Shown piece after piece: positions 1,097-38,327 of a stretch of DNA of 39,018 nt; the stretch's first letter is position 1, and each line of letters starts with the position of its first letter. Source of the DNA: Psammoneis japonica (lineage: Eukaryota); assembly GCA_008632985.1 (NCBI GenBank), contig QPGO01000363.1:1-39018 (forward strand). The letters are read 5' to 3'. Under the pieces are notes generated by a model. It worked only from the letters and a program-made list of their open reading frames with translations. It was not told where the DNA came from and did no database searches. The position numbers and the translations under genes were made by a program.

Positions 1097-1196
1097 TTTG
1101 ACGACAATGGCGGTGGCTGTGGTTGTTGGTTTTTTTTGTAGTCATCGGCTTTTCAACGTAGACTCAGGCAACATTTCTACGGCGATGCGTCACTGC

Positions 1197-11373: not shown

Positions 11374-12400
11374 TTAAGCTTTGTATTCCTCTTCGTCTGA
11401 AATCTCTAAATTGAGCAAGGCTTGTTCAAACGCTGCATCATCCAGCTCTTCTAGCTTCTTCTTATCCGCCGAGACACTTGCCACTTTCTCGTTTAGAAGA
11501 CTTGTTATGTCCAGAGCTGCAAGCTGTTGCTCAAACAAAACGTCTTGGATATGCTTACAGATCTCCGGTGGTAGTGGCACTGGCGCCCCGCGGAACTGCA
11601 TCATTCGGCACTCGAGGATCATGACAAGACTGGACACACGATTTGCTCTGCAGATCAACCGTCCACAAAATGTTGTTGCTCTTGTGTGCACGGCCTGTCC
11701 GCTCACACCATCGATCACGGCACATTTTGATGGGTGATGGACTTGGGACTGTCAGCATTGTCACTGTCGTTGCATGTGCTCTCATCCAGAGACCAAACCT
11801 GAATGGCGCCCTCGACACCACCACGAGTTCCAAGTTTGTGAAGAACGAAATCATCTGGCAAGGGAAAAGGTGAATTTTCGACTCCAGATGAAGACACAAA
11901 GCTCCTGCTTTTGGCTTTTGATTTGCTGGGATGCGACGAGCCATGTTGAAGCAGCTCGGCTTCAGCATCCTGCTGTTGTAAAATTGGAAAGTCCATCAGA
12001 GCACCAAGAGCAAAACATGAGATGTTTCAGCCTTCACCTCTCACTTTTTGTTTCACACGAATCCAACAATCGCTCCACGCAACTTGCCACATCTTCTTTT
12101 GCCAACCTCTCCAACGCGTCGCCATTGTCAAGATTGGCATTCTTTAATTTCCACTTCATGTCAGGGACGTAAAAGCACGTGTTGTCAAAACCATCAGGAA
12201 ATGGAAATTGGTTGCCAGACCCCACTCTCAGTGAGGCAAATGCTGGCTTTCCAAATTTCAATGAACCAAGCAACCGTGCTGAAAGAGTCATCGCTTTCGT
12301 GCACAGATGCCCAAATCAATGAAGCAAGTCTTTTGCTGAGTTCTTGGAGGTGTGACAAGCAAGTGAAGGAACTCAACATGTTGCACAGTGGACCTGGATT
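11374..12400 (-). pseudogene. PRIMPOL: PrimPol (primase-polymerase) C-terminal half, frameshifted and largely TA-erased
   Basis: KTCFIDLGICARKR..(F)RLLGSLKFGK compares with PrimPol FVDLGVYTRNRNFRL..SSK.GK. The UL52-type zinc finger RWCERTGRAHKSNNILWTVDL..KSCVQSCHDP(E)CRMMQFRGAPVPLP compares with RWCENIGRAHKSNNIM..VDL....YQKCHDP.C. Confidence 0.85.
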
Positions 12401-12595
12401 TGATTGCTGCTGCTCTGCAGGACAGAGCCAGGGTTGGCGCCAACGATGCTCCAGTGTGCAGCCTGCTCAGCAAAAAATTGGTCTTTGACAGCCAGGAGTG
12501 GCCCTTCATCAAGCCACTCAATTGGGCCATGTAGGAGGGGAGTGGATGCCAGGGGCTTTCTTTCCTCTTGTCATGACCCTGAAGAGGCTGGCCAA

Positions 12596-12830
12596 GCTGC
12601 CCCGCAAAAGAACTCCGGAAAACCAAATTTACGCAGAAGGAGTGCGCCAGGGCCCCAGCAGAAATGCCAAATGAGTCCGGAGTGTCCAGAAACTGCGTAG
12701 AATCCATCGTAGAATCAGCGCCAGGGATGTCAAAAAATCACAAAATTCCGGACTTGTTTGGCAGTTCCACTGGGGCCCTGGCACTTCTTCTGCATAAATT
12801 TGGTTTTCCGGAGTTCTTTTGCGGGGTGGC
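12596..12830. repeat. Foldback/MITE-like inverted repeat (~85-bp arms, ~65-bp spacer)
   Basis: 12596-12681 (gctgccccgcaaaagaactccggaaaaccaaatttacgcagaagg...gtccgga) is the reverse complement of 12747-12830, with mostly transition differences and a small indel. Confidence 0.9.
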
Positions 12831-15800
12831 AAGGTGCAGCTGCCACTCAGAAGAGCTGCACACATGCCGAGAATGCTGCCATGACATGCGCTGGATGTGC
12901 TCACTTTGCTCTTGACTGACAAGTCCTCCACCACCTCCTGAAAGCAAAAGACAAACTCCATGATCTTGGAGAGCCAGCGCAGCTGGCTGAGACCAAGCAA
13001 GTTGCAGACTTCCTCAAATGAACATCTGACCCACAACATCAAGTCATCAGGAAGCAGCTGGCCAAAGGGATGCATTTGCTCTTGGTTGGCTTTTCATGTG
13101 CAGCTGTCTGTGGCCCTTGTGCTGCAGGGAACTCAACTGTGAACTCTCCAGTCATGGATCTGACTTTTTCTGTGGGCTGGTTGCAATCCCCAGCATTGTT
13201 CTCTGCCTGGTTCAACAACAACAAAATGAAACTGCAACACTTGCTTTCAATGCATGTGAGAAGCACAGCAGCATGTTTCCTTCATTGTCATGAGACCTGC
13301 TGCCCCTCTGCTTTTCTCACTGCAGTCATTCTGGACAATGTGGCCATTGGTTGACACTGCCTGGAAAGTTTGATGGTTCCCTTTCCCATGCCTTTGTGTT
13401 GTCCTTGAATTTCCCAATGCAAAAATCCTCCACAACCTTGCTTTTGACAGACCAACACACGAGGGGAAAGGATCAGCAAAATTGCTCCACAGTGGACAAG
13501 AGGCAGGTTCAACATTTCCACATTGGCATGAAAGGCATGAAATGCTGAGATTGAGAACAAAAACCAAAGAAAATCAAGACACAAAAGGGGGCACAGAGAA
13601 GCCAATTTGAATGTGGACATTGCCGCCTGTGCAGCAAGAGGACAAAACCAGCCTTGTGCAATGTCTCCTTTGCAACTCTTGGTTGACAGTCAAAGGGAAA
13701 AAAACACAAGCCATCCAGAGTCCAGAAAAACATCATTTTTGGAACTCCACAAGTCCATGCCTGTTCTCAAATCTCCAGCACCTGGGGATTGCTTGACAAG
13801 CTGATGCTTGTCATGACTGCCGCCAATGCAAGTCACATGACTCTGGATCAAACAAAGAGCTGTGTCATCCTGGATGACCCTTTTCTCCGCTGCAATGTGC
13901 GGAAGAACACAGCAGACATGCTCTGTGGCCACCTGGGCAATTGACAATTTCAGCCATCATGGTTCTGAGTGATGCTTTTGCCCACTGCCACAATTCCTTC
14001 AGTTTTGCACACAACACATCAAGCCCACTTCATGCAACTGAGATTGACACATTTGAGTGCTGTCTGAAACAAAGCTGCTTCAAGTGTTGATGAAAACTGA
14101 AAACCCAAATGAGCTGAAATGAGCCATTGTCCAGCAGCTTTGGATGGAGCAATGTCTTGCAACTTGCAACTTGAGTTGCTCTCTGATCTTCTGTCATGAA
14201 TCTGTGGCACAGGTTGCTTCTGTCCACATCTCTTCCTCATCTTGTTGCTTCAGTCTTGAAATGCGGGCATGGCAGTTGTCACCAATTGCTGGACAACGAC
14301 AATTTTGTTCCACGTTCTGGACTCAGCAGGAGCAACACCTGTGCAGCTGTCTTTTCTTCTGGTGGTTTGGCACTGTGTGTTGCAGTTTGGACAGCAAACA
14401 GCAGATTGCAACTCTCACAACCAATGGTGGAGCATTCCTGTGCAACATTTTTCTGGGGGCAAACAGCAAGTTTTTTCTCGATGGCACACTGCAGCATTGG
14501 CACACTTTCTTTCCTTTGTTGAAACATGTGGCATTTTTGGTTGAAACCAGCCCATGACATCTTGTTTTCCACTTGCAAACATGTGGTGGGCCCCCTAAAA
14601 AGAAACCCCACGTCAGTGCTTGACCAACCAGCGTGAACATCTGGGGGCAACTCCACCCACACTGCCACTTTTGACATGTCGCTCTCAACGAGTGCATGAT
14701 GTGCCTTTTTGTGCACTTTGGTCATGGAGGCATTTGCGACCTTTGATTGGGTGGAGACAACAACAGCAAAAAGGCATGAGAAGCACAGCAATGTGAGTGA
14801 AAGCATCCAAAGGAAAAAGTTGAGCGGCACAACCGCTGTGCCACATGTTTCTGATGTGACTTGGAAAGATGCTGTGCAGTTGAGTTGCTCACCCACATGG
14901 CCCCTCCATGCAGACTCTGGCTCGTGGCATGCAGTGGTGCATGCCATGCACCAGTGCTCACGTCATCAGCACAGGCACTCACATGGCCTTGGCACTCAGT
15001 GCAGGCAGCAAGCAGCGGGTGCTCGCACAGCATCAGCAATCAGCAAGCAAGCAAGCACATGGCAGCACCGTTGCTCACATCATCAGCACAGGCACTTGCA
15101 CAGCATGGCGCAGGCACTTGCTTGTTGCGTGTGATGCAATCGCTGGCAGCCAATGGAGTTTTTTCTGTGCAACCATGATGAACGCGCAATGATTCTGACA
15201 GCAACAAGTTGGTTTGTTCTCAACAGTGCATTGTGGAACTGCCATGTGTTCTTTTTTTCATTGAAGCACGCAACCTTTTTGGTTGAAAACAGTGCGAACA
15301 TCTTTTCATCGGCTTGCAAACATGAACCACCCAAACATGAGATCCAGGAAGAAAAAAGGATGCAGGCAGGGAGACCACGACACAAAAGCCTTTTCTGGCT
15401 TTATGAAAAACATCATGAGTTTGTGTCTCAGTTTCCACACAGACATTTGTTTGAGGCTCTTGTGAAGGAACAATCTGCCAGAGATGAGTGCATCACAGAG
15501 AAAGAGATTGCCATCCAAGAAAACAAGCAAAAAAGATCCTCGCATTTCTTCAAGCTGTTGTCTTGAAAACAGTTGGAGATGCCGGAAAGGTGATGCCCAG
15601 CTCCAGTGGACTGTTGCAGTCCAAGTCGAGAAACGGTCCCACTGCAAGTGACAATGCTGTTGATGTCAAAATGAAAGACACCAGTGACATTGACACATCC
15701 TGGGGCACTGGCTCAACAACAATGGAGGTTAGAGGGGGCTGGCAACACATTGAATGGAAGTGCTTCCTGTGCTGTCACCACCTTCAAAACTGAGCCGTTG

Positions 15801-17049
15801 TGCAGTGTTCCCTCTGCATGTCATGATGGCAACAATCAAAAAGGCAGTTTGCATGAAAACAAGACTGAGCACTCAAATGCCATCATTGAGTCAGACGAAG
15901 GGCCATCCAGTGGTGTTTTGGAACTGTCTTTGTACATTCTGTCGATGTGCAGTGCAAAAAAGCAACACTGGTGCATTCCAAAAAAGAGATTTGGCAAAAA
16001 CCAGCTCAAAAATCTGTTGTTGTTCCTCTTGAAATCAACGTGAATTGTTTGTTTGTGCTGTTGCCCACTTCACCCCCAAGTTGCCTGCTGTCTGGCATTT
16101 GCCTTTTGTGTGTTGCGCGACACTGTGATCTTGGGTTGGCTGAACATTGTGGTGCACAACTGACAACCGTGAAGATGCCGAGCACGCATTTTTCACAGAT
16201 CAGCAGTTGATCTCTGCATCTCAACCATGGAGGCTAAAAGGTGAAGCACAAAGAGAAGGAAGGCTTTTCAAGACACGTCTTTGTCATCAAGTGATGAATC
16301 AGAGAGTGGCTCATCTCAGATCACAAAGAGGAAGATGGCCAAGGCCAAGAAAGACAACCCGGCTGATTCCGCATTTAATTTCCAGTTTGCACCTGTGATT
16401 CTTCAATTTTCCAGTCACTGGAAAGAAGAAAGTTTCATTCAATGACAACTTCTTGGAGGGGAAAGTGACAATTGGTCCTGATGATGATTGGACCGCATTG
16501 CACTCAGCCGCAAAGGGTTTGACAATGGAAGAGAAGCTTGAGGCACTGCAAACAAAAGAGAAGAGAGAGCCAATCCCATGTCTCTTGAATTTGAGCTGGT
16601 TGAAGCACTCATTGTGGGGGAAGGTGACATTGTGTGTGGCAGTGACAAGTGTGAAGCAGGTGGGGAAAATTGGGGAAACATTGGTCAGTCGCACAATGTC
16701 AACAGCTCTGGCACGTGCATCATGCTGCGCTCCATCTGTCAAACATTGTGGCAGGCTGTCTGTCAGCCATTGTGCCAGGTGCACCACACTGCATTCTGTC
16801 CATTGACCATTGCAGCAAGTGCAACAAACTCTGTTCTAATCTGCTGGAAACATTGCAAATTTAAGTTAGAGACGGTGCCTCTTGCTTGCCGCCACGGCAA
16901 GCACATGCCTCCATTGCCTCGTGTGCTCTGAGATTGGGCCCTGGTCTTTGCAGCTCGGTTTCCTTCTCAAAAGAGGCCGCTGAAGGGCAATGCTTGCAAC
17001 TGGGGACCTGACAATGACAGCAAGTTGAGCGAGCCATTTTGGGAGTGAT

Positions 17050-17960
17050 GCTGTCAAGAGCGCCAAGGTTGTGCTCAACCCACCTTGTGCTCCCATGTCA
17101 CTTCAAGCATTTTTTGCAGTGACCAGACATGATCATTTCAGTGGGATTCAAGCCAGGGCAGTGTGGGGAAATGAAGACAAAAGTGGCTTTCTTTTCTTCA
17201 ATGATGTCCATGATGCACTGTGAGTGGTGAGTTGATGCATTGTTGAGCACAACAACGGACCTTGGCTCCCAGTGCAAGGAGCCAGTTTCTCTTTGAACCA
17301 AAGCTCAAATTGCTCCTGACAAACTTTTCCAATGAGTGGGTTGCTCTCTTCATCTCTTGCATTGCCCTGAGGAACAATGTCGCAGGCCTCCTTTGTGAAT
17401 CCTTTGATGTCACAAGCTGCAAGCAATGAATGCCAAGCCCATTTGTTGATCTCAAAGGATGTTGATCGAACAGGAGTTGCACCTCGTCAAGACCACCAGC
17501 ACCATCGTCTTGATGAATTTTGATCTTTGTGTGACTCATCCAAGTGTGACAGCATTTCAGGTCAACAAGCTGCAGCCTTCAATGCTTGGAGATGCGACTG
17601 CATTTCTTTCTTGTCCATTTCCATGGCCTTGTTTGTCACAACGTGAAGGGAGCATCACACTTCCTTTCTAAGTTTCTCATGCATCTGGGCTGGGCTCCAT
17701 TTCTTGTGAGCAACCTGGTTCATTTGGATCACTGGCTCATCCAGATGAAGCTGGGCTCTTGACCAACAATGTTCCTCACAGGATGTGGTGCCCCCCTCAG
17801 TCCACAAATGTTGCTTGTGTCCAGTGTGAGATCTGGCCATCCATTTGTCAGTTTCTGCTGGAGTCTCACCACAGAGAAGACAGTGATCAAAACATCATTG
17901 ACATGTCAAAGAATCATGGGTGCTCCTTGGCAGATGGAGATCAGACATGTTCCAGCCACA
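17050..17960 (-). mobile_element. Degenerate IS630/Tc1-mariner (DDE_3) transposase
   Basis: Across frames: ..HLDESHKDQNSSRR.., LLAACDIKGF, QFELWFKEKLAP, EPRSVVVLNNASTHH (cf. VVVLDNASIH), and FISPHCPGLNPTEM (cf. PPYSPDLNPIE). The sequence has stops, frameshifts and Tyr-to-His/Cys changes. Confidence 0.85.
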
Positions 17961-18914
17961 CGCGAACCAAATTGTGCACGAAAACAACACATTCGCACAA
18001 GTTTTGCGTGGTCCCCAACTTGCTGCAATCAAGCTTTCACCACCACCAAAAGCACAGATTTGTCCAAATGTAAAATGTCTCGCAACACTGACAAGACTTG
18101 CATGAGTGTTGCAGCATCATTGTTTTTGTGCAATGTGTGTTTTTCATTGCAACAAAAGAATCCCAACACAATGGATGATTTTTGGCAAAATTGTTGCCGT
18201 CACTTTGATGTTGTCACAAACAATTTTTTCTGCGATGCTTGCTCTCTGGCATGAGCTCCAGTGCAAATCTCTGTGTGCAATGCACTGACGTGCAATCCAC
18301 ATTGAGTCCACTGAGGGAGTTTGTGATGCATGTCCCAGGAGGACCATGAAATCAAGAAATGCTGTTTGTTTGTTCCAAATGCCTCTTTCCCCCAACATTG
18401 CCCGCTGTCTGACAACAGCCTTTTGTGTCTCAAACAACATCGTGCACTTGGTGTTGTTGAAAATGATGGCCCACAAACAACATTCAGTGACCTGCCAAGC
18501 ATGGATTTTCTTCTCTCTGGCAGTCATCGGCCAAGCAAAAGAGCAACCTAAATGGACTGTGTTTTGTTGAACTGGCCAATTCATTGCCACAAAGATCAAC
18601 CCTGCTCTGCACAGGTGTGGTTGCCGAGGTTTTCAGCAGGCAATCATTTCATCAATTCTTGTTGGCCTTGGGTGAAAATGCCGTCCGCGTCTGAGCTGGT
18701 GCTAAAACTCAGTGCTCAAACCCATGTCAGCAAGCGAGTGATCAACAGCTGGAGTGTGCTGGCTGCAGCGCAACTTCAGAGTGCAGCCACAGGGCTGCAA
18801 CCATGTGGTGACTGCATGGAGACCTTTGTAGAATGGCAAACAACCATGATGACATTGCACTGCACTTTCTGCCCAAAGCCAGCCAATGACATGAATCCCC
18901 TTGATGATGCCAAT

Positions 18915-20140
18915 CAAGACTCACTTGTGTCTTGACAACATTCTCTCCCACCTGACATCCAATGCCTCCAGGTGCTCAAACAATGGTTCAAAAGGCAAGC
19001 ACCTGATTTGTTTCAAAGCTGTGACCCAACTTCCAGTGGCAGGTTTGGGCACCTCAGCAGCATTCTTGGGTTCTTCCCAGGGCTTCAAAACTGGCAGAGA
19101 ATCTTGAAGAATGTCCATCAAATGCATTGACATGCCAAACACTTTCTTTCTCCAACATTTGGCCTTCCACTCAATTGCAGAGTGGCAGTCAGACAGAATT
19201 GGGTCCAGAAACAACAAAACCTTTTCAAAAACCATGCTCGCCTGAGTCTTTGCTGGTGCAGTCAAGCGTGCCGACAACTTCAAAACTCTCTCCCCCCAAT
19301 GTCCAACACTCGATTCCATCTCAGAGAGATGGTTGGACAAGATTGGGTTCCGAAAAACAGCAAAAAATTGTTGTGTTCCTGCAGAACAGGTGCCTGAGTC
19401 TCTGGGTTTGCATGATGACGTTGTTCAAAATTGCATCTGGAAGTTTCCGCCAAAGCTGAAATGCTTCTGACTTGATGTCTGAGAAAAGCTGCTGTGTGCA
19501 CCCAACAAGAAGGCAAACTGGATCTCCAAAAATGTTGTGAGCGCATCTTGGAACGGGGCTGACTTGGTCTCAACCATGCTTTTGGGAGCAGTGTTGTGAA
19601 AGAGTTGCTGGAGGCTGTCGTTGGAGTCGCCATTGCAGTCCTGAACAAAATGTTCATGGACACAACACTTGTTGGTGTCTTCTGCTGGTGCAATCGTTGG
19701 CATGGCATTGCTCAGGAGGTCTTGGGCATGACTCGGAGACATGTTGCCATCATCAAAATGAGCCCAAAAGCTGGAAATGATGATGGCATTTTTGAAGGGG
19801 ACAGTGCTGGGAGCAGCATCGCTGATGATGGCATGGCAGCAGCTGGAGGCAGTGTCAACATCTGAGCATCTGTCGTCCAAAAACTTGTGTGGTTGCCTTG
19901 GTCAACAAGGTGCTGATGCAGCACTTTGTCGCATGAACAAACAAGGCAGAGAGAGGGTCAATGATTGCACCAGCACTCATGGCGGCAATGATGGCAAGGA
20001 CAAAGTTCATGATTTCTTTCATGATGGACTGTGAGCTGATGAGCAGTTCAGAAATTGTGAGAGCACTCGAGGCGCCGTGGCACAAGACACATGAAATCCA
20101 TGTGGCGCGGGCCATTTCCCCATTGCGCTGAAGTTCAAAG
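18915..20140 (-). pseudogene. Hypermutated copy of the 4747..5955 gene and its flanks
   Basis: Collinear with ~4690-5975 (e.g. LQDSLPVLKPWEEP, MNFVLAIIAAMSAGAII). TA is systematically replaced by TG/CA and many CG by TG/CA, and there are frameshifts. Confidence 0.95.
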
Positions 20141-21049
20141 AAAGGTTGTCACACACACGACACACACACACTCACAAAATTGACAACGTTTTTGGCACAG
20201 TTGGCGTGTGCATCAAGTTCAGCCAATTGTGCTGCTTCAAGTTTCATGCTCCAATTTCCAATCCGCTGCCGCCATGTTGGCTGCACCACTGACAGCAGGG
20301 CTGCTTGCTGTTTGCTGTTTGCTGTCACTCAAATTGCAGAAGAAACCATGTTTGATGTTTTTTGAACCTTTTGGTGGGCTGCAATGACACACTGCTGTGC
20401 TGCCTCAATCCCAGTTTTTTCTGTTGTGGAGGCTGCACTGTTGCTGGTTGAGAAAAGTCATTGCACTTGTGGGGCACTCACTGACACCCACCAATGGTGC
20501 AATTTTCACACTTGTTGCTGGTTTGAGGGCAACAAGTTTGCTTCATGGGCCTCAGTTTGCCACCAGCAACAAATGTCATGATGTCACACAAGCCCAAAAT
20601 GCCATTTCTGGTTCAACCTGCAATGCACACACAAGTGGCAACTTGTGTTTGAATTGAGATGTGGCCGTTGCACCATGGTCACATTGTCCCCCTTTTTTGG
20701 CTGCAAGGCTGCAATGCAACAAGACAACACAGTGCAGCACAGCTGCAGCAATTGCCAGCCACAGCTCAGCACTGTTGCAGGTTGGGGGGAATGACTTGGA
20801 CAGCCATCAATGTTGTGCATGTTTGCAGCAGGTTTTGGGGGGACATGAGTGCATGCTCACATTCAGAGGACAAAGGAGACAGCTGGCTCAGGAGAATGTG
20901 CGCTGAATGTTGCTGGCATGACAGGGGGAGCAACATCATCTGGGATGCCAACAATCTGGGTCTGACTGTCTGCCACAATCTGGGTGTTTCTTGACTTTAA
21001 TGCCAGCGTGTTGTCAACTTGTGAGCCAATTCTCTCCTTAAATGTAACA

Positions 21050-21445
21050 GACGTGTTCCAGCTCTAGGTGGGACCTCGTACTGCTGAACTGTGACATGAT
21101 TATTTTTTATCATCCGTCGTATGTTTCGCACGTACATATCTACGTGTTCTATTATAAAAAACTGTTCCACACTGCCTGTTTTGCGAAGCCAAAGGCTTTC
21201 TGTTATCTGCACTTATGTCAATAAAAATGCGCTGGGTATATTCTTTAATGTCTAAAGAATATACCCGGGCATACTGTAAAGAATGTACTTCAAGTGTGGA
21301 GGAGGAGATACGTTCGCAAAATTGCCTCTTTTTCTGTTGGCGATCATTCATATATCCATTGCTTAATAATTTTACTACGGAGCTCGCACGTAGAATTCTA
21401 CGGGCCCAATGTCACAAAAAGTCCCACCTAGGACTGGAACCCGTC
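21050..21445. mobile_element. Unmutated AT-rich island with terminal inverted repeats and a central hairpin (MITE-like)
   Basis: 21055-21074 (gttccagctctaggtgggac) and 21421-21440 (gtcccacctaggactggaac) match 18/20 as inverted repeats. A perfect 14-bp-arm hairpin lies at 21234-21266, close to the centre. TA content is normal. Confidence 0.55.
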
Positions 21446-21859
21446 AACATGAGAACTGCGCAAGTTTGTGAGCTTCTAAAACCCAAATCGCTTCTCACTT
21501 TTAAGTGCGATCATTCTTTTCACACAATGCTGACCTGCGCCCCAATTGACATTTGCGGTTTCTTGTTCTTTGAACACAAATGTTGCTGCTTGTAATCCAC
21601 CCTCCTTTTCCACCAACTCGTCCCACATTTTGTCTCTTTGCTGTGTCGTTTTCAAATCCAAACCCCCAATTGCCACACGTTCTTGCATCCAAACCGCATT
21701 GCAGAATGTTTTTTTTTATTTTCGCTTGTCTGGATTTTGTTGCTTGTTTCAAATTACGTTTGCACACCAGTTTGGTTGGTGGCCATTGCGGCATTTGCTG
21801 CCGCTCCGTTGCCTGCAGCCACCACCTGCAATGGTGGGTCCTCTCCCATCGGCGCCACC

Positions 21860-22882
21860 CACCCTTCCTCTCTCTCCTTTTTTCCTCTCTTTTGCGTTTC
21901 TTGTTTTCCTCCTGAGACAAGTTTGTCTTTTCTCTCGCCTTCTCTCCTTGAACCATGCACAGAATCCCTGGTTGTTCTCTCTGTCTTTCACCACCCACTG
22001 GCACAGATCATTGCACTTCTTGATCCCCTCCTTGCTCCATCCTTGGTTCCTCTTTGCCGACTCCCCCACCACCTGCGCTGTGCACTTTGCAGGAGCAGCG
22101 TCTTTCACAGTTGGCTTTCTTCTCCTTGCAACATTTTCTTCCTTTTCCAATTTCTCTGCCATGTCCTTCACCTTGTTGCAGTGGTTCAAGTGCACTGGCA
22201 GAGCAAACGCCTCTGACAAAATGGAAAGCCACTTCTGAAGCATGTTGGTTGTGCTTCCACCAAACTGCGCTTGTCCCACCACTGTTGGCACCACAGTTTC
22301 CAAGAACCATGCGTGTGTGTCCTTGTCATTTCTTCCCTTTGTCAAATCTTTGCAACCCACCAGCGATCCCTCTAAAGCAGCAACTGCACAGACAAAAGCA
22401 AAGGAAGTGACACTCATCCCATCAGACAATCGCCTCCAACACAATCAATGGCACGCACACATCTGCTCACCTGTCATTCTCCTCCCAATGTTGTCCTGCA
22501 CATTGCTCCTCTTTCAGTTGAGTTTGGTCCTGAGCACCTCTTTGCATTCTTCCCAGAACGCCTCCGGTGAAGACGCCATGCTCCTCAACTCCTGCAGAAC
22601 CAATTTCATGCAATCTCCTCCTGCGGCGAGTTCATGATCGAAGATTGTGAACTTGTGACATGGCCAAACACTCTCATTGATGACCTTTGTCAACATCAAT
22701 GCCATCAATTTCTTGCCCACCGCCGGTGCACGATCCAACACAAGACATCCCTCTGTGGGAGTCACCACCGAACTTGAATCCCCACCTGCGCATTGGAATC
22801 TGTTCAATTCCCCATGTTCGTTTCTTTGTGCGTGCAACAAGGCCGCCACCGCAGGACTCATGGTGACTTCATGTGACACCAC
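21860..22882 (-). pseudogene. Transposon-associated conserved hypothetical gene (possibly intron-containing), TA-erased
   Basis: VWPCHKF...EAFWEECKEVLRTKLN*KRSNV, then HAWFLETVVPTVVG...LSEAFAL..LN...AKCT....RNQGWSKEGIKKCNDLCQWVVKDR. This matches the 'SDEAFALL..EN..KYT..GWS.EG...FN.L...V..DR' pattern I associate with accessory ORFs of diatom DNA transposons (from memory). Confidence 0.45.
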
Positions 22883-24464
22883 ACAGACAAACCCAATTCT
22901 GTTGGTTCATCAGCAACTCTTTGTCATGTCCTTTCTCAACCTCACTTGCCGCTGGAAGTTGCGCTTCCTCCCTCCGTCACTCCTGTGAGAACCGTGTCCT
23001 CCATCTTTTTTGCCTTCCCAGTGGCCTCCTCTCATTTGGAACTTCCGTCCTTTCCTGTCACTTTGTGAAAGGCAAGCCAAGAAATGAGTGCACTTTGCAT
23101 GTGATTTTCTCGGTTTTGTCGTTGCTCGCATGTCCTCTCTCGATTCAAACAGGTCTTTGCATCATTTTTGAGTGCTCATTCCCAACCCCATGTTTGAATT
23201 TCTGTCAACGTTCCACTGTTTTGAATTGTGCACCTTTGTCAGCCAATCCAATGCACCAATGAAGATTGCAACATCATTCAAATCAATGTCAAACAATGTG
23301 TTGTGTCTCCTCACATTGATGCGTGCATTGCGCCTGCTTCCTGATGCAACATCTGTTTCATTTGGTTTGTCAAGTCGTGTCAAACCTCCCATTTGTTTGT
23401 GCAAATCCATGTCGCTCATTGTCTCATGTCAATTTGTCCCTGTCTTGGTGGGTCATTCTCTCCACTTCCCTGACACCACATCTCTCCAATTGCTCTCTCT
23501 GTCACCCAAATTGTCCAATCCACTTTCAATGGCTGCCAAAGAGGGGTGTCATTGTCACTGAGATGTGGTTGTTGTGAGTCGTTCCCGTCACAGGAACGTG
23601 GGTTCCTTCTGTTGCAATCACATGCCGCCAATTGATGATCAAATTGGTCGTTTTGCTGGTGGTGGTGTGGTGGAATCACATGGTGGTGCGGCAAGCTTTG
23701 CCTTCTTTGCCAAGGTTGTTTGTAACCCCACTCTCCTTGCGGCCCAAATTCGAAGCCCTTTTAATTTCTTCGACGTTGGTGGTGGTGTTGGCGGTTTTGC
23801 AATTGCCTGTCGTTTGCTTGTTCCTGCCTGCAATGCCTGCAGCATCGAGTTCCACCGCCCCCATCATGATTTGGGCTCTCAGTGATGTGATGCCATCTGG
23901 CATGACCACACCAGTCGCTGTCCTGCCCTGATCAATCAGGACTTCCTCTCTGAAGATGATGCTGTGCATCGGTTGCACCGTCTGAACAACTTAAAGATTT
24001 TCTTCAACAACTGCAATGGGCGAATGCTTTTTGACAACAATGCGACACAGAACCAACTCGAGGAGACACTGTCCAACGAGTGTCCTGAAGGTGCCATCGT
24101 TGTTTCACTGGACATGATGTTTTGTGTGCACACCCACAAATGGAGGCATGAAGCATTCTTTGTTCCTGCCTGTCCAGACGATCTGTCATGGGGAGGTGGT
24201 GTCGACAGGCACCTGCTTCACAAGCACACCAAGAAAAGAGACGATGCCGTGGAGCCAAGGCATTCCACCAGGAATGACCCAGGGTCTGTCATCAAACAAA
24301 AATTCAAGCCTGCCAAAAGTGGGTGACTTTTCAATTCCCCTTTGTTCACAATGCAACTTTCTTCTGTGTGAGCAATGCATTGTTGATTGGCCCTTTGCAC
24401 AAACCCACTTTTTGCCTGCACCAACTTGCTGCTTCGCTGGTTTCGCATTCCAACAACTGCTTGT

Positions 24465-25100
24465 TCACATGCTTGCCATGTCAAAATTGTGGACTGGACA
24501 TGCCATGTTCCTTCGATCCAAATTTGTTTTGTCAGGCAAAGCTCGGTGCAACATTCTTGCATCAAAAACAAATGCAGTGCCTGCTTCTCCAACCAGCAAT
24601 TGCCCCTCCAAACCCAGCCTGACCAGCTGTCTTTCGCGTTCCTTCTCATTCAATGTCACCTCACAACCATCCGGCCATGTCTCAACTGCACCATTGTGAT
24701 CCGTTGTGTCATCGAGGAACAGAAACATGGTGAAAATTTTGTTGCCAGGCAACAATTTTGTTTCCATGAAATCATGATGAATTTCCCCCTTTGACCAGAA
24801 GTTTGATCTTGAACTTGAAGCAGGAGCATTTGCTGCTGTGTGCCGGGACATCTTTCTGCAAAATCACCTGCCAGGGGAAAGCCAGGAATCAACTCCAACA
24901 TTTTTTCTGCCAACTCAACACCTTCCGCCTTGTCCTTTTTGTCAATGGCAAACTCACCCACAAAGCGGTGTCCTTCCTTCTCTCGCTTGCCACTTGGTGC
25001 CTTGTTTGCCAGCGTTGTTGTCTGGTTGAGCAGGGGTTGTGGTGATTTGAATTTTTGCAAGCAGCCTTTTTTTCCTTCCTGGTGCACTCTTTCTTTGGAC
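24465..25100 (-). pseudogene. 2-oxoglutarate/Fe(II) dioxygenase (PhyH-like), frameshifted and TA-erased
   Basis: GEIHHD (HxD)...FTMFLFLDDTTDHNGAVETWPDG...LVGEAGTAFVFDARMLHRALPDKTNLDR (distal His, then Arg). This is the canonical PhyH-family DSBH motif order. Confidence 0.7.
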
Positions 25101-25659
25101 CCAGCTGTCTCACTCTTTACGACATGAGATTTCATCTCGCCCAGTTGTGCCAGCAACTTGCCATGTTTCTGACATGACGTTGTCAGCCAACGGGCAAATT
25201 TCCAGCACCCGCCAACAGAACACTTCCACGCCATTCTCTGAAAATGCCTGTTCCACCAAATCAAATGGTGCCTGGTCTTTTTTTTTAAGTGGAACAGACC
25301 CAATTCAGCGAAAGTCTGCATCCATCACTGTGCAACGAAAACGGCTTTCTTGCTGAACATGTGTTGCCAATGGCAGTCCATCTGTCGGGTGCACCACAGA
25401 TGCTTTTTTCATAAATGGTCCCATGTGACATGATCTTCATTGATCCTGTTTGCTGCATGATCTCATCAAATGGGTCATCCTGGCCATCTCAAAAGCGTGG
25501 AAAACAATTTTGTTGCACACTGTCTTGCCAGTGTTGTTGTGAGACATTTTCATGTCGCCACCGCGGCAGACACAAAGGAACAGCTGCCATCCACCATTCA
25601 TTCCGCACCACAAACAAACTCTTTTGGAAGAATGTGTGTGATGAACAATTGCAAATGAC

Positions 25660-25860
25660 AGGTGTCACTTTTTTGTCAACACACCCATCTGTCAACAGAG
25701 CAATTTGGCATCACTTTTTCATTGTTGCAACCATGTGTCGACAAAGTAATTTGGTGTCACTTTTCTGTTGTTGCACACACATGTCAACAGAAGAATTTGG
25801 TGTCAGTTTTTTGTCAATGCGTGCATCTGTTAACACACACCTTTGGCATCACTTTTTTGT
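25660..25860. repeat. Degenerate ~44-bp tandem array (tgtc.ac.a...aatttgg(CA/TG)tcactttt)
   Basis: About five units contain ggtgtcactttt or ttggcatcactttt and tgtcaacag/tgtcgacaa at roughly 43-46 bp spacing. Confidence 0.75.
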
Positions 25861-25879
25861 TCACACACTTGACACCAGC

Positions 25880-27005
25880 CTGCACATTGTCATGACATTG
25901 AGCACATCTCCCGCAGCAAACCACACTCTCCCGAATCTTGTCCAAGTCGCTGATCAACTCATGTTGAGCAGCGAACAGATGACGTTTGGGCAACTCCATC
26001 TCTTGTCCTCCGCAGCCTTGTCATTCTCTGCTGGGTGAGTGGACTGGAGGCACATTGAAATCCTCATCGGGTGCGATGTCACGCGGCGGGCCAAGAGGGT
26101 TGTGTTGATCGAGGGAGGAAACAGGCTCTTCTGTCAGAAGGGAAATTGAAGGGGACCCACAACTGCCATCGCAACGGCGGCTCCAATGAACTCAGGAACT
26201 TCTGCAGGACTGTCCTCTCCAAAGGCAGACACACCATCATCTGCAAACAAAACAAATCGGCAGGCGTTTTGGGAGGCTGCACTGGCGGCAGCAACGTTGG
26301 CGGCTGAGCGCAATTGACCAGAGCATCTGACGGAGGGTGGGCACAGCCCATTTCCAGCAGAGGGAGGACAAGCTGGAGAAGAGCTGTCCGTTGGTGTGGG
26401 AGGAGATGGAGCTGGATTCCAAAGGACTTTGGGGAGGGGAGGAGGGGGTTCATCGTCAGAGAAACCAAACCAAGCAGGATCATCATGGTCATCCAGTGAT
26501 TCATCATGGTCGTCCAGTGATTCATTGTCTGGAGGGGGAAGTGCATTGGCGGCAGCAGAAGATGCGGCATGCAGGCGAAGGGACATTTCCTCCTTTTCAT
26601 GGCAGGGCAAGCACTTCTGTAGATGAAGGGTGATGTTGGAAAAGGGGACATGGCAATGGGGGCATTTGGGTTTGTTGGTGTTGGATCCAAGGGAGCCAAC
26701 GGAGGCGGAATCCAGAGGATGAGAGGAAAGAGATGTTCCGCCGGATGAAGAAGACAATTGGGCTGTGCGGCGCAACTGTGTCAATGGGGGATGGAGACCA
26801 GATGCTGCAGTGCAGTGCCAAGATGGGTGATGTTGCACATTGTTTTTGGAGTCAAATCCCCATGTTGTCCACAATGAGGACAACCAAAAGACTTGGTGAA
26901 AATGGCGGAACGGAGGCAGTTAGTTGCGATGTGCCTGCTGAGACCACGTTCGGAAAAGAAACCAGTTTGTTTGCACCATGGACAAACAAGACCATCAGAC
27001 GACAT
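25880..27005 (-). mobile_element. N-terminus of a probable Plavaka (CACTA-like) transposase: C2H2-type zinc fingers plus acidic linker, truncated before the catalytic core
   Basis: MSSDGLVCPWCKQTGFFSERGLSRHIATNC..GCPHC..; KCPHCHVPFSNITLHLQKCLPC; acidic DNESLDDHDESLDDHDD; then ELPKRHLFAAQHELISDLDKIR. This architecture is recalled from diatom Plavaka-type transposases. No catalytic domain is present, so the family call is inference. Confidence 0.4.
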
Positions 27006-27776
27006 GGCCGATGTGCAGAGACAAAGGAGTTGAGAAGAGAATCGAAAGGAAACAGCGTGTGCAGCAACAATCACTTGGGGACATGGTGAGGGCAGAAACA
27101 TGGAGAAACAACATGCAATCGACATGGAAGGCATCAAAGGATGGAATGGGCAGGGAGAGAAAATTGAGAAGACAATTTTGAATCTACATTGACGGACACA
27201 GGCGGCGATTTTGATCCAGAAAGTTGACCAACACACAATCCAGAAACCAAAACAGAACCAAATGTGCACACAAGGCTTGTCGGATGGGGGGGGCAAACAG
27301 TTAAATTGAGGAAAACAGATGTTTGTTGTTGAACATTTCAGAAAAGCTGACTTGACAAATCAGCACGATCTTGGATCAAAGGGAGTCAATGTCGGGTTTT
27401 GTTTCAAGAAATCTTGATGGCCAGTGCGACACCTGGATTGTTGGTGTCCCAGATGATTTCTGGTTTTGTTCACTGCACACAAAAAACTGGCAATGCCCAA
27501 AGCCACCAATGTCCCAAATGTTTTTGCTGGTGCAAGCCAGCAGTTGAAACTTTCAATTTGCCAGCAATGGCCATGTTGCAGGCAATCTTGCAGGCTGTGT
27601 TGTGTTGGGGGTTGGTTGGCAGCAACTCCAAGCTTCTTCAACAAAAACCACACAGGAAAGCAAACTCACAAAGGCACATTTTTGTGAAGTTTGCTCATTG
27701 ATGATGTGTGTGTGTTCAAGCAGCACAGAGCAATGGGAGGCAAGCATCGTGATGTGTGCACTTTGCAGCCCTGAGT

Positions 27777-28162
27777 TTGGCCCCCCATCATGTCATTCCC
27801 TCACTTTGTCAGAGCATCTTTGCCAGTGAGTTGTGCGCCAATGTTCCCATCTTCAATTCTTTGCTGGGGCACAACCCAGCAGGATGCACCACAAACAGAT
27901 GGCAGGCAGCAAGGGCACAGCAACTCACCACACTCACCACCCCATCATTTTCAATTGACCACATTCTGCTGATGGTTGGGGAGGGGTTGGTCCCCCACCA
28001 TGTGTTGTTCCTTCACTTTGTCAGAGAATCTTTGCCAGTGAGTCGTGCACAATGTGGGTCCCCATTTCAATTCTTTGCTGGGAAACAGGGTGCACCACAA
28101 ACAGACTGCAGGCAGCAAGGGCACACAGCAACTCACCAACCCATCATTTTCAATTGACCACA
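27777..28162. repeat. Tandem duplication of a ~200-bp unit
   Basis: 27777-27963 and 27987-28162 share ttgg.cccc...tcactttgtcagag.atctttgccagtgag...caattctttgctggg...gcaccacaaacaga..gcaggcagcaagggcac...ccatcattttcaattgaccaca. Confidence 0.9.
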
Positions 28163-30089
28163 CAATGTGCACCCACATTCTGCCAACAGTTGGGCAGACA
28201 TTGGGGTGTGCAACAACATTTGGCCTGCAGATTCCTGTGCACAAGCTCTGCAGCAAAATTGTTTGGCAGCTAAAATGTGGATGATTGCCAACAGAAAAAG
28301 AGGCAATTTCAGCCAATGTTCTTCACAAAACACCTGTCTTCCAGCATGGAATCCTCTCCTCTGCCACCTGCTGCCTTGCTTTGTTCTTTCTTGCCTTCAA
28401 CTCACAAATCACAAAGCATGGCAATGTGTGTGCTGGCCCTCTTCCTGCTCTCCATGTCACTCTCAGGTCCCAGCCATTCAGTTTTCCACTGCAGTTTCCA
28501 AAACAAGTCTTGATGACAAACCAGGTCTTCTTGAGTCAAGCAACATGCTCCATCAGCCAACAAACAGTCAAAGTCAAAGGGTCGCTCTGGCAGCAGCAAA
28601 GTTGCTGAGTCTCATTGAGCAAAGCAAGGCCAGAAGGAATCCCACCATGGCACAGTCGTGCTTCAAGAATGCCATTCGCCACCACATGTCGTGTTTGGCT
28701 TGTTGCAAGTCACGCTGGATGGATTTGATCTGGGCCACGCACTCGTTTTTCAACAAACTCAACGAGCATCAACGACAAGGACAACTGCTCAAGCTTGACG
28801 AGAAGAAGCATTTCGAGTTCAGAGTTGATCTTGAGCTTCATGCCCAAGGGCTTCAACCAGGAGAACTGCTTCTCAGTTCAAAAAACATTCTCCTGAAACA
28901 ACGCGAGGAGTTAAAAGGAAGGAGTGTCAGCAGCAGGATTGGCATCAATGCAAACAAGTTCTTTGACATTTAATGTGCAGCACTGAAGAACACATGGTCC
29001 TCTTCTGCCTGCACTTGCCTTGTCACTGCTGTGTTGACTGCGGTGGCGTTTTAGTCTCTCGGCAATTGTGCCCTTTGCTCATCATCTGCTGCTGATCGTT
29101 GCATTGTTTCGGGTTGATTGATGAGTGATGCGTGATGCCTGATTTTCAGTCGGCAAAAAAATTGTCTCAAACATTCATTTTGTGTGTGTTTTTATGATGG
29201 GGTCTTTCAGTGCAAAGTTGGAGCCATGGAAGAATCAAAGGATCATTGTCAGCAATGGTGGGCAGGTCCAGAGCACTGTGAAAAATTTTGATGCACAATG
29301 ACAGCTCTGACATGTGAGAAGAAAGAGGCTGGATGGTGGAAGGCATTGAGATTTGATGGTCTTCTTTCACATCTGCCTTGCTTCTGTTGGCCCTGTTCGT
29401 CCAATGCCAAAAGAAGGAATGGCGGCATTGTGTGTTCAAAAGCAATGATGATGGCCAAGCAAAACAAATCCAAGTGTGAAGTTCCTTGACAAAAAACAGA
29501 GCAGTGGCTGCATCCACATGTGCTGTGCAAGCTGTGTGCAAGCAACAATGAAGTGCAAACAAAATGTTGCTTGCACAGTGGGATTGATGAGATTTTGCAG
29601 TCTGCCGTCATCCATCCAAATGCTGCGGCCATCTTGTGTTCTGTCAGCCCAAGCTTGAGGCTGGGTTGAAGAATTGTTGGAAATCCAGTTGAAGCTGCAC
29701 GTGATCAAATGGGCAGTTCTTCCACTTGTCCAGTCTTCTGAGTGCTTCCAGGATTTTGAGGTCAAGTTTTGATGTTGTGCAAGGCAGAATTTCTGTGTTG
29801 GGCAACAACAAGTCCTTCATGCTGCTGCAGCATTTCTCTTCTTTCTGCAACAAGTCTTTTGCATGGAGAGGAGTGAGCGAGCTGGAAGGGGAGTGTTGAC
29901 GTTGAAGCAAGGCAATGAATGAAACTGTGCCACATGTTTTGCAAAGGGAGCATTATAAATGAATGAACAGTGTGGTGGTTCGGATTTGACACTGATGGTC
30001 TTTGAAAGATTCGAGGGATTTGTGAAACACCACAGATCGTGACTTTCAAAACGTGAGCATTGTGGTGAGGTCATTCCAACCGACTACGA

Positions 30090-36132: not shown

Positions 36133-37749
36133 GATCTTGTGCTTTGTTGAGGAGTCGACGGCATGAGCGGTCATTGAGTGTTGTTTCTGCCATCTACTTC
36201 TACCTACCGTACCGTTAGGTACAGTACACAGCAGCAATCGATACGTGTTCACGGAAATGCGCGGAATCTGCACGCAACTCCGGCAGAGATTTTGCGGGGG
36301 GGGGGGGGCGCTGTGTTACTTGAGCCCCCCCCCATGAAATCCGGCTGCTTTCCGTCACAGCTCCATGATGCCACGTGTAAAAATTAACCTCCCGTTTTTA
36401 ACCAAATACCCACCTCGATCGACTAACAATATACAGATACGAAGCTTATGACGCTTTTGGGGGCCTAGAATGGGGGTGAACGTGCGTTAGTTAGTTACTA
36501 AAACCAATCACTCAAAATCGTCCCTCGTACTTTCACGTGTAATAAAGGTGCTCCACGAAAAGTTGGTTCTATTTTGAAATACCAGATAGCATGAACAACA
36601 CATACCTATTACATTCTTGCAAGACATCGGTTTAATGAGGATGAGACCGATAATGCTCATATCTTTTGTATTTTGTTGCTCTAGCAGGGGTCAAAGTCTA
36701 GCTAAAACTTCCAAAAAATTCGAGTCGAGCGGGACACACGGGATTCAATACTCGTGACTCGCTGTACGATGAACGATGAAGTGAAATTGACCCGTTCTCG
36801 ACACCGAGATTAGATGACAACATCATCACAAACCGATTCTATGGCAATGTTCAACTTTCTAATTTGTCTTTGACCTCGTGACAACTGCATCCGACCTCTT
36901 TCATGCTGTGAATGGGTGAAGCAATCCACCAATGCTCATTCACACGCCACACTTTTCCATTTTCACACTTGACACTTGTGTCTTTGCGATCAATCTAGAG
37001 AGCATGTGCAAGCCAGGGAGGAGATCTGTTCACTGTTGTTTGTCATTCCACGGAACAATGGCATCAGAATGTTTTGTCAACCATGTTTGACTGCTTTTTT
37101 CTTGAACCGTGCGCCAACTTCATTCTTCATTTTCACTCTCATCCGCCCGACTCTCTCCCATTCAAGAGTGCTTGGCTGAATGCATTGCAGTTGCTTTGTC
37201 AAAGTCTTCAAAAATGATCGTCCAGTCAATGCCATTGGTCAAATGGGTTTGACGATGTGATGACGACGTCATGTTCGTCGATGTGCTCATGCCAGGAAAA
37301 CAACAAGAGCTGGCTGCATCCGCAAGAAAGTTGAGTGAGACAACAACTGGTGAGCCTTGGATGCATTGATGGCACCATTTTGATTTTCAATTTACTTGCT
37401 TTTTTAAAAACTCAGACTTTGACTCAGTGGGTGCCGAACATCCGGCAAATGGTGAGTCGATGCATCGTCTGCATGCAACATGGCGTCACGAACGGGTGTG
37501 ACGGCGTGTTTGCACAAAACTCGACTCTCCGCCGTTCTCTGATGGTCCCTTTACAACCCCAAAAGAAAGACAGTGCAACAAACCTGCTGCAGTGATGGGA
37601 CCAGAAACGACGACTGTTCAGACACCTTGTCTGCCGCGTCAATGTCATCGTCGGCTCCGGCGGTTTTTTGACAAGTTCTCCGTGTTGTCACCGCGGTGGT
37701 CTGTGCGCTCATCCGGAGCACGCCTGCCATGCCAGTTTGAAGTCACTTG

Positions 37750-38241
37750 AGGTGGCACGGGTGCAAAAGTGGGCCAGATTCCATGCACGCAGAGCTTAGT
37801 GTGTTTTCTACACAAATCGCCAAAGTCGGCTCGCCAACTTGAACCCTCTCCAGGACGATGGAAACTTAGACATTTCACATGACAAAGTGTTTCGACTGCT
37901 CAGCTGCACTCTCCTCGACTTGTTTGGGGAGAGAAGTCACAAGTTTTCATGGGTTTCTGAGGACATGCAACGAATCTAATCAGAAAGGTGCCGAAATCGC
38001 GACGTTCGAGTTTCAAAGAGCTGTGCAAAACGAGAAACCCATGGAAACTTGCAACTTCTCTTCACAAACAAGCAGAGGGGAGTGCAACCAAGTGGTCCAA
38101 ACACTTTGTCATGTGAAATGTCCAAGTTTCCATCATCCTGGAGAGGGTTCAAGTTGGCAAGCCAACTTTGGCGATTTGTGCAGAAAACATGCTAAGCTCT
38201 GCGTGCATGGAATCTGGCCCACTTTTGCACCCGCACCACCT
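37750..38241. repeat. Long inverted repeat (~209-bp arms, ~75-bp spacer)
   Basis: 37750-37958 is the reverse complement of 38033-38241 (ggtgcaaaagtgggccagattccatgcacgcagagc...aagttttcatgggtttct), differing mostly by transitions. Confidence 0.95.
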
Positions 38242-38327
38242 TGGGGCCTGGGTCGCACAGCTGTTGGGGTAAAAGAGAAGACACATGGGCAGACGAAAAA
38301 TGCATGACCTTCGGCCATGCATTTGCA

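What the first reader, a model, noticed from the sequence alone, without database searches (positions are those of the whole stretch)
36860..38000. TpA loss is uncoupled from, and apparently precedes, CpG loss
Seen: here and in 1-1140 TA is almost gone while CG is plentiful (e.g. gacgatgtgatgacgacgtcatgttcgtcgatg near 37250; cgtcgccatcaccgcc near 880). In 12.8-20.9 kb both dinucleotides are depleted. Known: methyl-CpG deamination gives slow CG->TG/CA decay, and diatoms methylate CG in transposons. Inference: TA erasure is a faster, saturating process distinct from 5mC decay, so the CG level could date how long each block has been silenced.
Basis: partly seen in the sequence, partly recalled or inferred. 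Interest (0 to 1): 0.7.

Follow-up and report, generated by a model that had tools for sequence, protein, structure and literature searches.

The report
TpA erasure outruns CpG decay
In this diatom, repeated DNA first has almost every TA step rewritten to TG or CA by a fast targeted mutation process and only later loses its CG steps, so the CG left in an erased stretch gives a rough age for when it was shut down.

Summary
Confirmed, with one correction. 36860-37745 is the right part of a 1.4-kb repeat whose family is not TA-poor: 19 of 30 copies keep normal TA. Against intact copies, 37 of 39 TA became TG/CA/CG while 31 of 35 CG stayed. A sister haplotype shows the order. A fresh tract at 8480-8870 changed 9 of 23 TA and 0 of 23 CG. 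In long-erased blocks 30 of 207 CG sites differ between haplotypes, against 1 of 463 outside. Half-erased copies lost less CG than fully erased ones (26/165 against 119/267). The correction: the two losses differ in rate (TA about 9-30 times faster) but share their location. CpG decay occurs almost only inside TA-erased DNA, about 40% of 360 kb sampled. CG works as a rough ordinal clock, not a calibrated one. The closest known process is TpA hypermutation of viral DNA in Bigelowiella natans (2026 preprint, which mentions neither CpG nor diatoms). The enzyme is unidentified; an adenine deaminase is my inference. This scan noted the same process, and the same order, many times elsewhere in this genome.

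The parts
36344..37752 (+). 1.4-kb non-coding repeat (probably a non-autonomous transposon; class not established), at least 43 copies in the genome
   Evidence: 42 and 45 matches; shared ends in alignment; 19 of the first 30 copies TA-intact; the longest ORF inside an intact copy has no Pfam match
36344..36860 (.). Left part of the repeat, not erased
   Evidence: 25 of 29 ancestral TA and 19 of 19 CG kept; also spared in five other half-erased copies
36861..37752 (.). Right part of the repeat: TA erased, CG largely kept (the finding itself)
   Evidence: 39 TA: 22 TG, 14 CA, 1 CG, 2 kept; 35 CG: 31 kept, 3 TG/CA, 1 other; last kept TA at 36860, first changed TA at 36886
37746..38259 (.). About 500-bp element with long inverted arms at the repeat's end; TA erased, CG partly lost
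   Evidence: Inverted match 37750-38241; against the intact copy in L023, 31 of 35 TA changed and 5 of 24 CG became TG/CA, 2 transversions in 497 columns
1..1137 (.). TA-erased repeat in which CG loss is under way
   Evidence: TA o/e 0.05, CG 0.62; 9 of 51 CG sites differ from haplotype C464; the 10 differences checked against paralogues all lie on ancestral CG, none on 52 TA-type columns
8480..8870 (.). Fresh, partial TA erasure on this haplotype only, beside the erased block 6069-8254, in and next to a TPR gene copy
   Evidence: 9 of 23 TA changed, 0 of 23 CG, 0 transversions in 389 columns; the paralogue near 30113-30613 keeps TA at the sites it covers; TPR_12 at 7750-8741
6069..8254 (.). 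Old erased block, both dinucleotides depleted
   Evidence: TA o/e 0.04, CG 0.20
11575..20997 (.). Old erased block of nested repeats, including a DDE_3 transposase remnant
   Evidence: TA o/e 0.03, CG 0.29; DDE_3 E=4e-8 on the minus strand within 16400-17949
18797..20070 (+). Erased copy of the intact segment 4573-5874 of the same window
   Evidence: Of 50 TA: 26 TG, 20 CA, 1 kept, 3 other; of 79 CG: 31 TG, 29 CA, 15 kept, 4 other
21049..21446 (.). Young 400-bp element with terminal inverted repeats and a 4-bp target duplication, intact inside old erased DNA
   Evidence: 33 TA and 18 CG; 96-98% identical copies; 12 of 12 fetched copies have erased flanks and keep 26-34 TA
21506..30075 (.). Erased block with intermediate CG, holding host-type gene remnants
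   Evidence: TA o/e 0.04, CG 0.39; weak 2OG-Fe(II) oxygenase match, below the curated cut-off, at 24465-24863

Best explanation
Two mutational processes act on the same silenced domains of this diatom genome. (1) SHOWN: after a repeat has inserted, and after a lag, a local process changes A to G in 5'-TA-3' on either DNA strand (TA>TG or TA>CA). It works site by site and independently in each copy, prefers TAC and TAT, and goes on until about 85-95% of TA is gone. (3) INFERRED: the CpG loss is deamination of 5-methylcytosine written by DNMT5b or a chromodomain DNMT4 (about 0.75). The TA change is deamination of adenine by a TadA/ADAT-fold enzyme brought in by the same silent chromatin (about 0.45). 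Silencing probably switches both on together, and TA only appears to come first because it is faster. (4) Residual CG therefore ranks blocks by time since onset, to within a factor of about 2-4; it does not date insertion. The confidence given is for steps 1, 2 and the ranking.
For: Polarised counts against intact copies. TG/CA choices agree between most copy pairs only slightly above half, and 16-19 CA<>TG flips separate paralogues that differ by just 2-10 transversions, so erasure came after insertion. Haplotype pair: fresh tract TA 9/23, CG 0/23 (p=0.0015); CG sites differing 30/207 inside against 1/463 outside erased blocks (p=2e-15). Short-read contigs of the same sample carry several of the alternative alleles (8398, 8494, 9215, 9399, 7678, 12078). 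L-shaped distribution in 719 sampled windows. Half-erased copies lost 26/165 CG, fully erased 119/267, p=0.0004. Rate ratios 32 (window), 9 (adjacent element) and 9 (pooled half-erased copies). Context: TAC 114/183, TAT 165/330, TAG 73/210, TAA 53/218; AAG 0/278, AAA 13/559. A Tudor+DNMT+SNF2 locus and a chromo+DNMT locus are in the genome, matching DNMT5b and diatom DNMT4 as described in PMC9998398. ADAT2-like and TadA-like genes are present.
Against: No methylation, inosine or chromatin data. The deaminases found look like ordinary tRNA or metabolic enzymes, so their presence is no support. No strand clustering, which a processive single-strand deaminase might give (225/420 against 217+-8.5, p=0.20). 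The CG clock is uneven: block heterogeneity p=0.003 (p=0.32 without the contig-end block) and haplotype asymmetry 21 against 9. CG loss against transversions is only borderline (rho 0.60, p=0.05, n=11; rho 0.47, p=0.05, n=18), and TA loss and CG loss are weakly correlated too (rho 0.47, p=0.05). The calibration predicts about 9 transversions between 1-1137 and its closest paralogues; 2, 4 and 10 are seen. New CG arises from CA/TG at a few percent, which puts a floor under the clock. C464 may be a recent duplicate rather than an allele. The fresh tract could be gene conversion from an unseen erased copy.
Confidence: 0.8

Rival explanations
1. Spatial, not temporal: CG-rich erased DNA is an unmethylated margin that the TA mutator reaches and methylation does not, so CG level says nothing about age.
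For: The finding and the fresh tract both lie at domain edges. CG o/e is 0.66 in the first 100 bp of erased segments against about 0.33 further in.
Against: The CG-rich block 1-1137 has the same high CG turnover between haplotypes (9/51) as CG-poor blocks (2/27, 12/113). Beyond 100 bp CG o/e is flat (0.29-0.36), and the first bin is diluted by uncertainty in placing the boundary. CG-rich erased stretches run for many kb.
Confidence: 0.1
2. The TA change is not adenine deamination but a thymine modification that miscodes (oxidised T read as C), or an error-prone Y-family polymerase working in repair patches within silent DNA. The order TA-then-CG would stand; the enzyme would differ.
For: A>G and T>C cannot be told apart from sequence. 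No dedicated deaminase was found. No strand clustering.
Against: AAA (13/559) and AAG (0/278) are barely hit, whereas polymerase eta hits both TA and AA (recalled, no call). The TET/JBP search found nothing, but its control was silent too, so it counts neither way.
Confidence: 0.3
3. CG loss is an active, RIP-like C>T process driven by the chromodomain DNMT4 (RID-related) rather than passive decay of 5mC, so it would come in episodes and not tick evenly.
For: A chromo+DNMT locus on C34. RID and diatom DNMT4 may form one family (PMC9998398 passages). The per-C rate is about 55 times the transversion rate, and it is uneven between blocks and haplotypes.
Against: Loss is gradual and lacks a sharp flank rule (ACG 42/219, CCG 16/159, GCG 12/102, TCG 50/233). 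A ratio of this order is near what passive methyl-CpG decay gives in human germline data (about 30-fold; recalled, no call).
Confidence: 0.2
4. The elements are intrinsically TA-poor, or were edited as RNA before insertion, or TA was removed by selection.
For: All fetched copies of the 1-1300 family are TA-poor.
Against: 19 of 30 copies of the finding's family are TA-normal. The boundary falls inside the element. Both strands are hit about equally (22 TG, 14 CA). Close paralogues made different TG/CA choices. Host-type gene copies are hit too.
Confidence: 0.02

Closest known systems
TpA hypermutation of integrated NCLDV and virophage DNA in Bigelowiella natans (Mettrop et al., bioRxiv 10.64898/2026.01.13.699255; parts 1-3 of 5 read plus passages; most of the methods and all supplements not seen)
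   Same: TpA>TpG/CpA on both strands, confined to regions, leaving clustered TpA-poor and CpA+TpG-rich windows linked to foreign or transposon DNA; not always active; an ADAT-type deaminase proposed but unproven.
   Different: Here a diatom (stramenopile), not a rhizarian. Near saturation (o/e 0.03-0.1 against 0.45 in their viral region) over about 40% of sampled DNA. Targets are DNA-transposon relics, small repeats and gene copies. A 3' C/T preference and a weak secondary (A/C)AY target. Followed by CpG decay in the same DNA: the preprint's main text holds 'CpG' 0 times and 'diatom' 0 times. No mutation-accumulation measurement here.
Repeat-induced point mutation (RIP) of ascomycete fungi (search listings and abstract starts; otherwise recalled)
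   Same: Permanent, dinucleotide-specific transition mutations that wreck repeats, act on both strands and leak into neighbouring genes.
   Different: Opposite chemistry (RIP makes TpA from CpA/TpG; this removes TpA). Most members of a family with more than 90% similar copies stay untouched (19/30), and one partner of a duplicate pair is spared, unlike homology-triggered RIP. No strand clustering.
DNMT5-dependent CG methylation of transposons in diatoms (PMC9998398, abstract and passages) and methyl-CpG decay
   Same: CG>TG/CA loss confined to repeats; a DNMT5b-type locus is present.
   Different: Methylation not measured here; methylation alone does not explain the TA change.
TadA/ADAT2-fold adenine deaminases and engineered adenine base editors (PMC10661471 and PMC13109818, passages)
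   Same: A>G outcome; the best context here is TAC. TadA/ADAT2 is listed with 5'ACG and one engineered editor with YAC.
   Different: The natural enzymes edit tRNA; ADAR prefers 5'UAG on RNA, a weak context here; no enzyme is tied to this process.

Membership tests
Bigelowiella-type TpA hypermutation | Substitutions almost only TpA>TpG and TpA>CpA | tested here: met
   36 of 37 changed TA in 36860-37745; 46 of 49 in the in-window pair
Bigelowiella-type TpA hypermutation | Confined to regions, rest of the genome spared | tested here: met
   Bimodal TA o/e, 283 of 719 windows below 0.2; sharp boundary at 36860/36886
Bigelowiella-type TpA hypermutation | Acts on DNA in place, recently or now | tested here: met
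   Haplotype-specific tract 8480-8870; 5 of 30 residual TA in erased blocks differ between haplotypes
Bigelowiella-type TpA hypermutation | Targets integrated viral DNA | tested here: inconclusive
   No viral gene identified in the window's erased blocks (one weak Herpes_UL52 zinc-finger match). Erased gene-rich DNA on C297/C301 gave no viral marker in 17 ORFs scanned
Bigelowiella-type TpA hypermutation | About 1000-fold raised rate per generation, in a subset of lines | not testable with these tools
   Needs mutation-accumulation lines
Bigelowiella-type TpA hypermutation | ADAT2 with HxE, PCxxC and the Asn linked to DNA editing (candidate enzyme only) | tested here: inconclusive
   The L117 gene has HAE, PCIM(C) and CRNDRFGG read across a probable intron; such a gene is expected anyway as the tRNA enzyme (recalled)
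Fungal RIP | C>T at CpA, raising TpA | tested here: not met
   CA/TG>TA in 0 of 114 sites in the erased part; TpA is removed, not made
Fungal RIP | Triggered by homology between duplicates, hitting both copies | tested here: not met
   19 of 30 copies intact; one of two in-window duplicates intact
Fungal RIP | Tied to the sexual cycle and dependent on RID | not testable with these tools
   A chromo+DNMT locus exists; its function is unknown
Methyl-CpG decay | C>T confined to CpG, both strands, gradual | tested here: met
   120 of 713 C in CpG against 49 of 2365 other C in erased segments (sums); loss 9-72% across copies
Methyl-CpG decay | 5-methylcytosine present at these CpG | not testable with these tools
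   No methylome; candidate writers present

The most novel reading that the evidence does not exclude
Diatoms, and perhaps SAR eukaryotes broadly, have a natural chromatin-guided DNA adenine editor with a TAY preference: a 'reverse RIP' that is switched on together with CG methylation, nucleates at set places inside an element, spreads into neighbouring genes and has rewritten about 40% of this genome. The fast TA step and the slow CG step together give an internal two-stage record of when each repeat was silenced.
Probability: 0.35. Interest if true: 0.9.

Novelty: new variant of a known kind. Interest (0 to 1): 0.72.

Why it matters
TpA hypermutation has been measured once, in a 2026 preprint on viral inserts of one rhizarian alga. 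Here it is saturating, covers about two fifths of the sampled DNA of a diatom and has a readable time course. Time since silencing (as opposed to time since insertion) is normally invisible in sequence; a fast mark followed by a slow one makes it estimable per copy and shows that young inserts can sit unmutated inside dead DNA. The flank preference is a fingerprint for finding a natural DNA adenine-editing enzyme. In practice, standard transposon ages, gene models and codon statistics are distorted in such genomes: erased elements keep long tyrosine-free reading frames until CG decay breaks them.

Tried and rejected
Strand-coordinated runs of TG or CA looked suggestive in the window copy but failed a site-wise permutation test (p=0.20). 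A CG gradient from domain edges was not found beyond 100 bp. No TA-intact copy was found for the 1-1300 family among the loci fetched, and few for 12800-18700 (L059, L072 and a second copy in L061 are TA-richer), so those blocks are polarised by paralogue and haplotype comparison only. The TET/JBP search was empty with a silent control, so it is uninformative. Deaminase searches gave TadA-like, ADAT2-like, dCMP-deaminase-like, two A_deamin loci, a deaminase+2OG fusion, a RibD-like and a nucleobase-deaminase-like gene; the labels beyond Pfam names are my reading of the sequences, and none stands out as the mutator. No RNA holder was listed for this organism, so expression was not assessed. The laid contigs come from one sample that may be the assembly's source and are not independent. 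Pfam did not confirm the piggyBac-like look of 13000-14300; 21506-30075 was scanned only as open frames, so its element types stay mostly unknown. Five 'CG loss above TA loss' copies (L015, L018, L161, L162, L164) have 4-6 events each and are intact-type copies, three of them far from any reference; I treat them as background. L170 (poor alignment), L021 and L024 (no left part) and L163 (only the end hit) were left out of the half-versus-full test. PMC10953296 passages on 'YAC' were irrelevant; PMC12344493 passages mention neither TpA nor Bigelowiella. Seven literature searches found no report of this in diatoms; the library lacks most subscription journals.

Full report
OBSERVATION. 36860-38000 has TA o/e 0.12 and CG o/e 0.80; 1-1140 has 0.06 and 0.62; 12800-20900 has 0.025 and 0.25. 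An HMM splits the window into five TA-erased blocks (23.5 kb) and four normal ones (15.5 kb). Erased blocks have CA/TG o/e 1.5-1.8 and unchanged GC content. The window is contig C365 of a 91.4-Mb assembly. Among the 120 listed relatives of its leucyl aminopeptidase, those with a readable organism name are diatoms.

WHAT THE REGION IS. 36344-37752 is a 1.4-kb repeat with at least 43 copies. Of the first 30 fetched, 19 have normal TA (o/e about 0.65), so the family is not TA-poor. Taking as ancestral the state on which the three nearest intact copies agree, the window copy's right part (36860-37745) changed 37 of 39 TA (22 TG, 14 CA, 1 CG) and kept 31 of 35 CG. Its left part kept 25 of 29 TA and 19 of 19 CG; the switch lies between 36860 and 36886. 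The 19 intact controls lost 49 of 1293 TA and 28 of 1001 CG. An in-window duplicate shows the later stage: from 4573-5874 to 18797-20070, 1 of 50 TA and 15 of 79 CG survive.

THE TA PROCESS. It is A>G in 5'-TA on either strand. By trinucleotide: TAC 114/183, TAT 165/330, TAG 73/210, TAA 53/218 (the two strands of a TA compete, so these are relative). There is a weak secondary target, AAT 53/440, CAT 33/372, CAC 22/235, AAC 19/279, and little at AAG 0/278, CAG 2/138 or AAA 13/559. Copies chose TG or CA largely independently (one pair, L009/L024, agrees at 10 of 10 shared sites). Paralogues of 1-1137 only 2-10 transversions apart differ by 16-19 CA<>TG flips. So the change happened in place after insertion. 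Neighbouring changes do not share a strand more often than chance (p=0.20).

ORDER OF EVENTS. Four lines agree. (a) Copies: among 18 erased copies of 43, TA loss is 61-95% in 17 (40% in one), CG loss 9-72%. (b) Stage: six copies are erased on the right and intact on the left, with the edge near 36850-36950; no well-aligned copy shows the reverse. They lost 26 of 165 CG in the right part, nine fully erased copies 119 of 267 (Mann-Whitney p=0.0004). (c) A sister contig, C464 (19,181 bp, 97-99.7% identical). At 8480-8870 the window changed 9 of 23 TA and 0 of 23 CG, with no transversion, against 5 of 331 TA differences in other normal DNA. Inside old erased blocks 30 of 207 CG sites differ by TG/CA, against 1 of 463 outside (p=2e-15). 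In 1-1137, 10 of the 11 such differences were checked against six paralogues; all 10 lie on ancestral CG and none on 52 TA-type columns. TA erasure there finished before the two haplotypes split, while CG loss went on after. Short-read contigs of the same sample hold several of the alternative letters; this argues against assembly error but is not an independent sample. (d) Genome sample: 36 fixed-offset 10-kb stretches, 719 windows. 283 have TA o/e below 0.2 (HMM: 153,275 of 360,000 bases). CG o/e is below 0.4 in 178 of 231 windows with TA<0.1 and in 1 of 369 with TA>0.4. First-order rate ratios TA:CG are 32, 9 and 9 in three sets, with lower bounds 2-6.

The processes are uncoupled in rate and chemistry but coupled in place. 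Young inserts escape both: the 400-bp element at 21049-21446 keeps 33 TA and 18 CG inside old erased DNA, as do 12 of 12 fetched copies, all with erased flanks. The simplest reading (inference) is one silencing switch that starts both, with TA appearing first because it is faster. Sequence cannot separate that from TA erasure preceding methylation.

IS CG A CLOCK? As a ranking, yes. In units of the haplotype split, onset ages come to about 1 for 36870-37745, 6 for 1-1137 and 16-21 for the old blocks. Against precision: rates differ between blocks (p=0.003; 0.32 without the contig-end block) and haplotypes (21 against 9, p=0.04). CG loss tracks transversions only weakly (rho 0.47-0.60, p about 0.05), though some scatter is expected because transversions date insertion. 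The calibration overpredicts transversions for two of three close paralogues of 1-1137 (2 and 4 seen, about 9 expected). CG is also regenerated from CA/TG at a few percent. The rival that CG-rich erased DNA is an unmethylated margin is disfavoured by the CG turnover in 1-1137 and by a flat CG profile beyond 100 bp from edges, but it has not been excluded for the finding's own segment.

MECHANISM. CG loss is CpG-specific and gradual, about 55 times the transversion rate per C. The genome has a Tudor+DNMT+SNF2 locus and a chromo+DNMT locus, fitting DNMT5b and diatom DNMT4 in PMC9998398 (passages), where DNMT5a loss removes CG methylation from diatom transposons. Passive 5mC deamination is my best guess (0.75), an active RID-like step the rival. 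For TA, adenine deamination by a TadA/ADAT-fold enzyme fits the T-A-pyrimidine preference (context notes in PMC10661471 and PMC13109818, passages), but the deaminases found look ordinary; I give it 0.45. Likely consequence (inference): promoters, tyrosine codons and TAA/TAG stops go first, leaving long tyrosine-poor frames (for example a 1058-aa reverse-transcriptase frame with 2 Tyr), and CGA>TGA breaks them later.

KNOWN KINDS AND NOVELTY. It works like the TpA hypermutation measured in Bigelowiella natans (bioRxiv 10.64898/2026.01.13.699255) and meets three of its features tested here; viral targeting is inconclusive and the rate is untestable. It is not RIP: the direction is opposite and homologous copies are spared. 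Seven searches found no report for diatoms, and the preprint's main text does not mention CpG; its supplements were closed. I found that preprint, before consulting the scan's notes. Those notes show that the process, the TAY preference and the TA-before-CG order were recorded many times in this same genome (2203 findings matched one word set); they are unchecked and are not counted as support. What this window adds is the haplotype pair, the recurrent boundary inside one element and the stage test.

VERDICT. Real; a new variant of a recently described kind; interest 0.72.

Noticed in passing
window 36344-36860 and L009, L013, L166, L167, L171: Erasure has a recurrent edge inside the 1.4-kb repeat: six copies are erased on the right with the left 500 bp spared, even when both flanks are erased (L013); L009 and L024 are hit internally while at least one flank is normal. 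This suggests a nucleation site or a protected end.
   Followed up: partly
window 21049-21446; L147-L158: A young 400-bp inverted-repeat element with a 4-bp target duplication sits in TA-erased DNA in 12 of 12 fetched copies (0.43^12 = 4e-5 if random; these are the 12 best matches of at least 42) yet is itself intact: insertion preference for, or tolerance in, dead DNA.
   Followed up: partly
window 7750-8870: A TPR gene copy straddles the edge of the erased block 6069-8254, and fresh erasure has entered its 3' part on one haplotype; a paralogous segment lies at 30113-30613.
   Followed up: partly
all erased blocks of the window: TTAA is the most resistant TA context (ratio 0.33 against 0.00-0.20 for the others). 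It is also the piggyBac target site (recalled).
   Followed up: no
G000 C297 and C301 (L123-L125, L140-L146): Tens of kb of TA-erased, CG-rich DNA with long tyrosine-free frames and several bacterial-looking C5 methyltransferase copies; origin not identified, possibly foreign DNA.
   Followed up: partly
G000: 27 C5-methyltransferase matches, including five intact stand-alone genes (L118-L122) besides the DNMT5b-like and chromo-DNMT loci.
   Followed up: no
L116:319-1791 (minus strand): A CDA-fold deaminase fused to a 2OG-Fe(II) dioxygenase in one 491-aa frame; role unknown.
   Followed up: no
window 10013-10129: A contig of run X2, listed as 'DNA?', skips a GT..AG stretch here and covers the GNAT-like frame at 10411-11208, as a spliced transcript would.
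   Followed up: no
window 34717-35627: Leucyl aminopeptidase (Peptidase M17) pieces in two frames on the minus strand, directly left of the repeat; TA normal.
   Followed up: no
window 6630: A single N in the window sequence.
   Followed up: no
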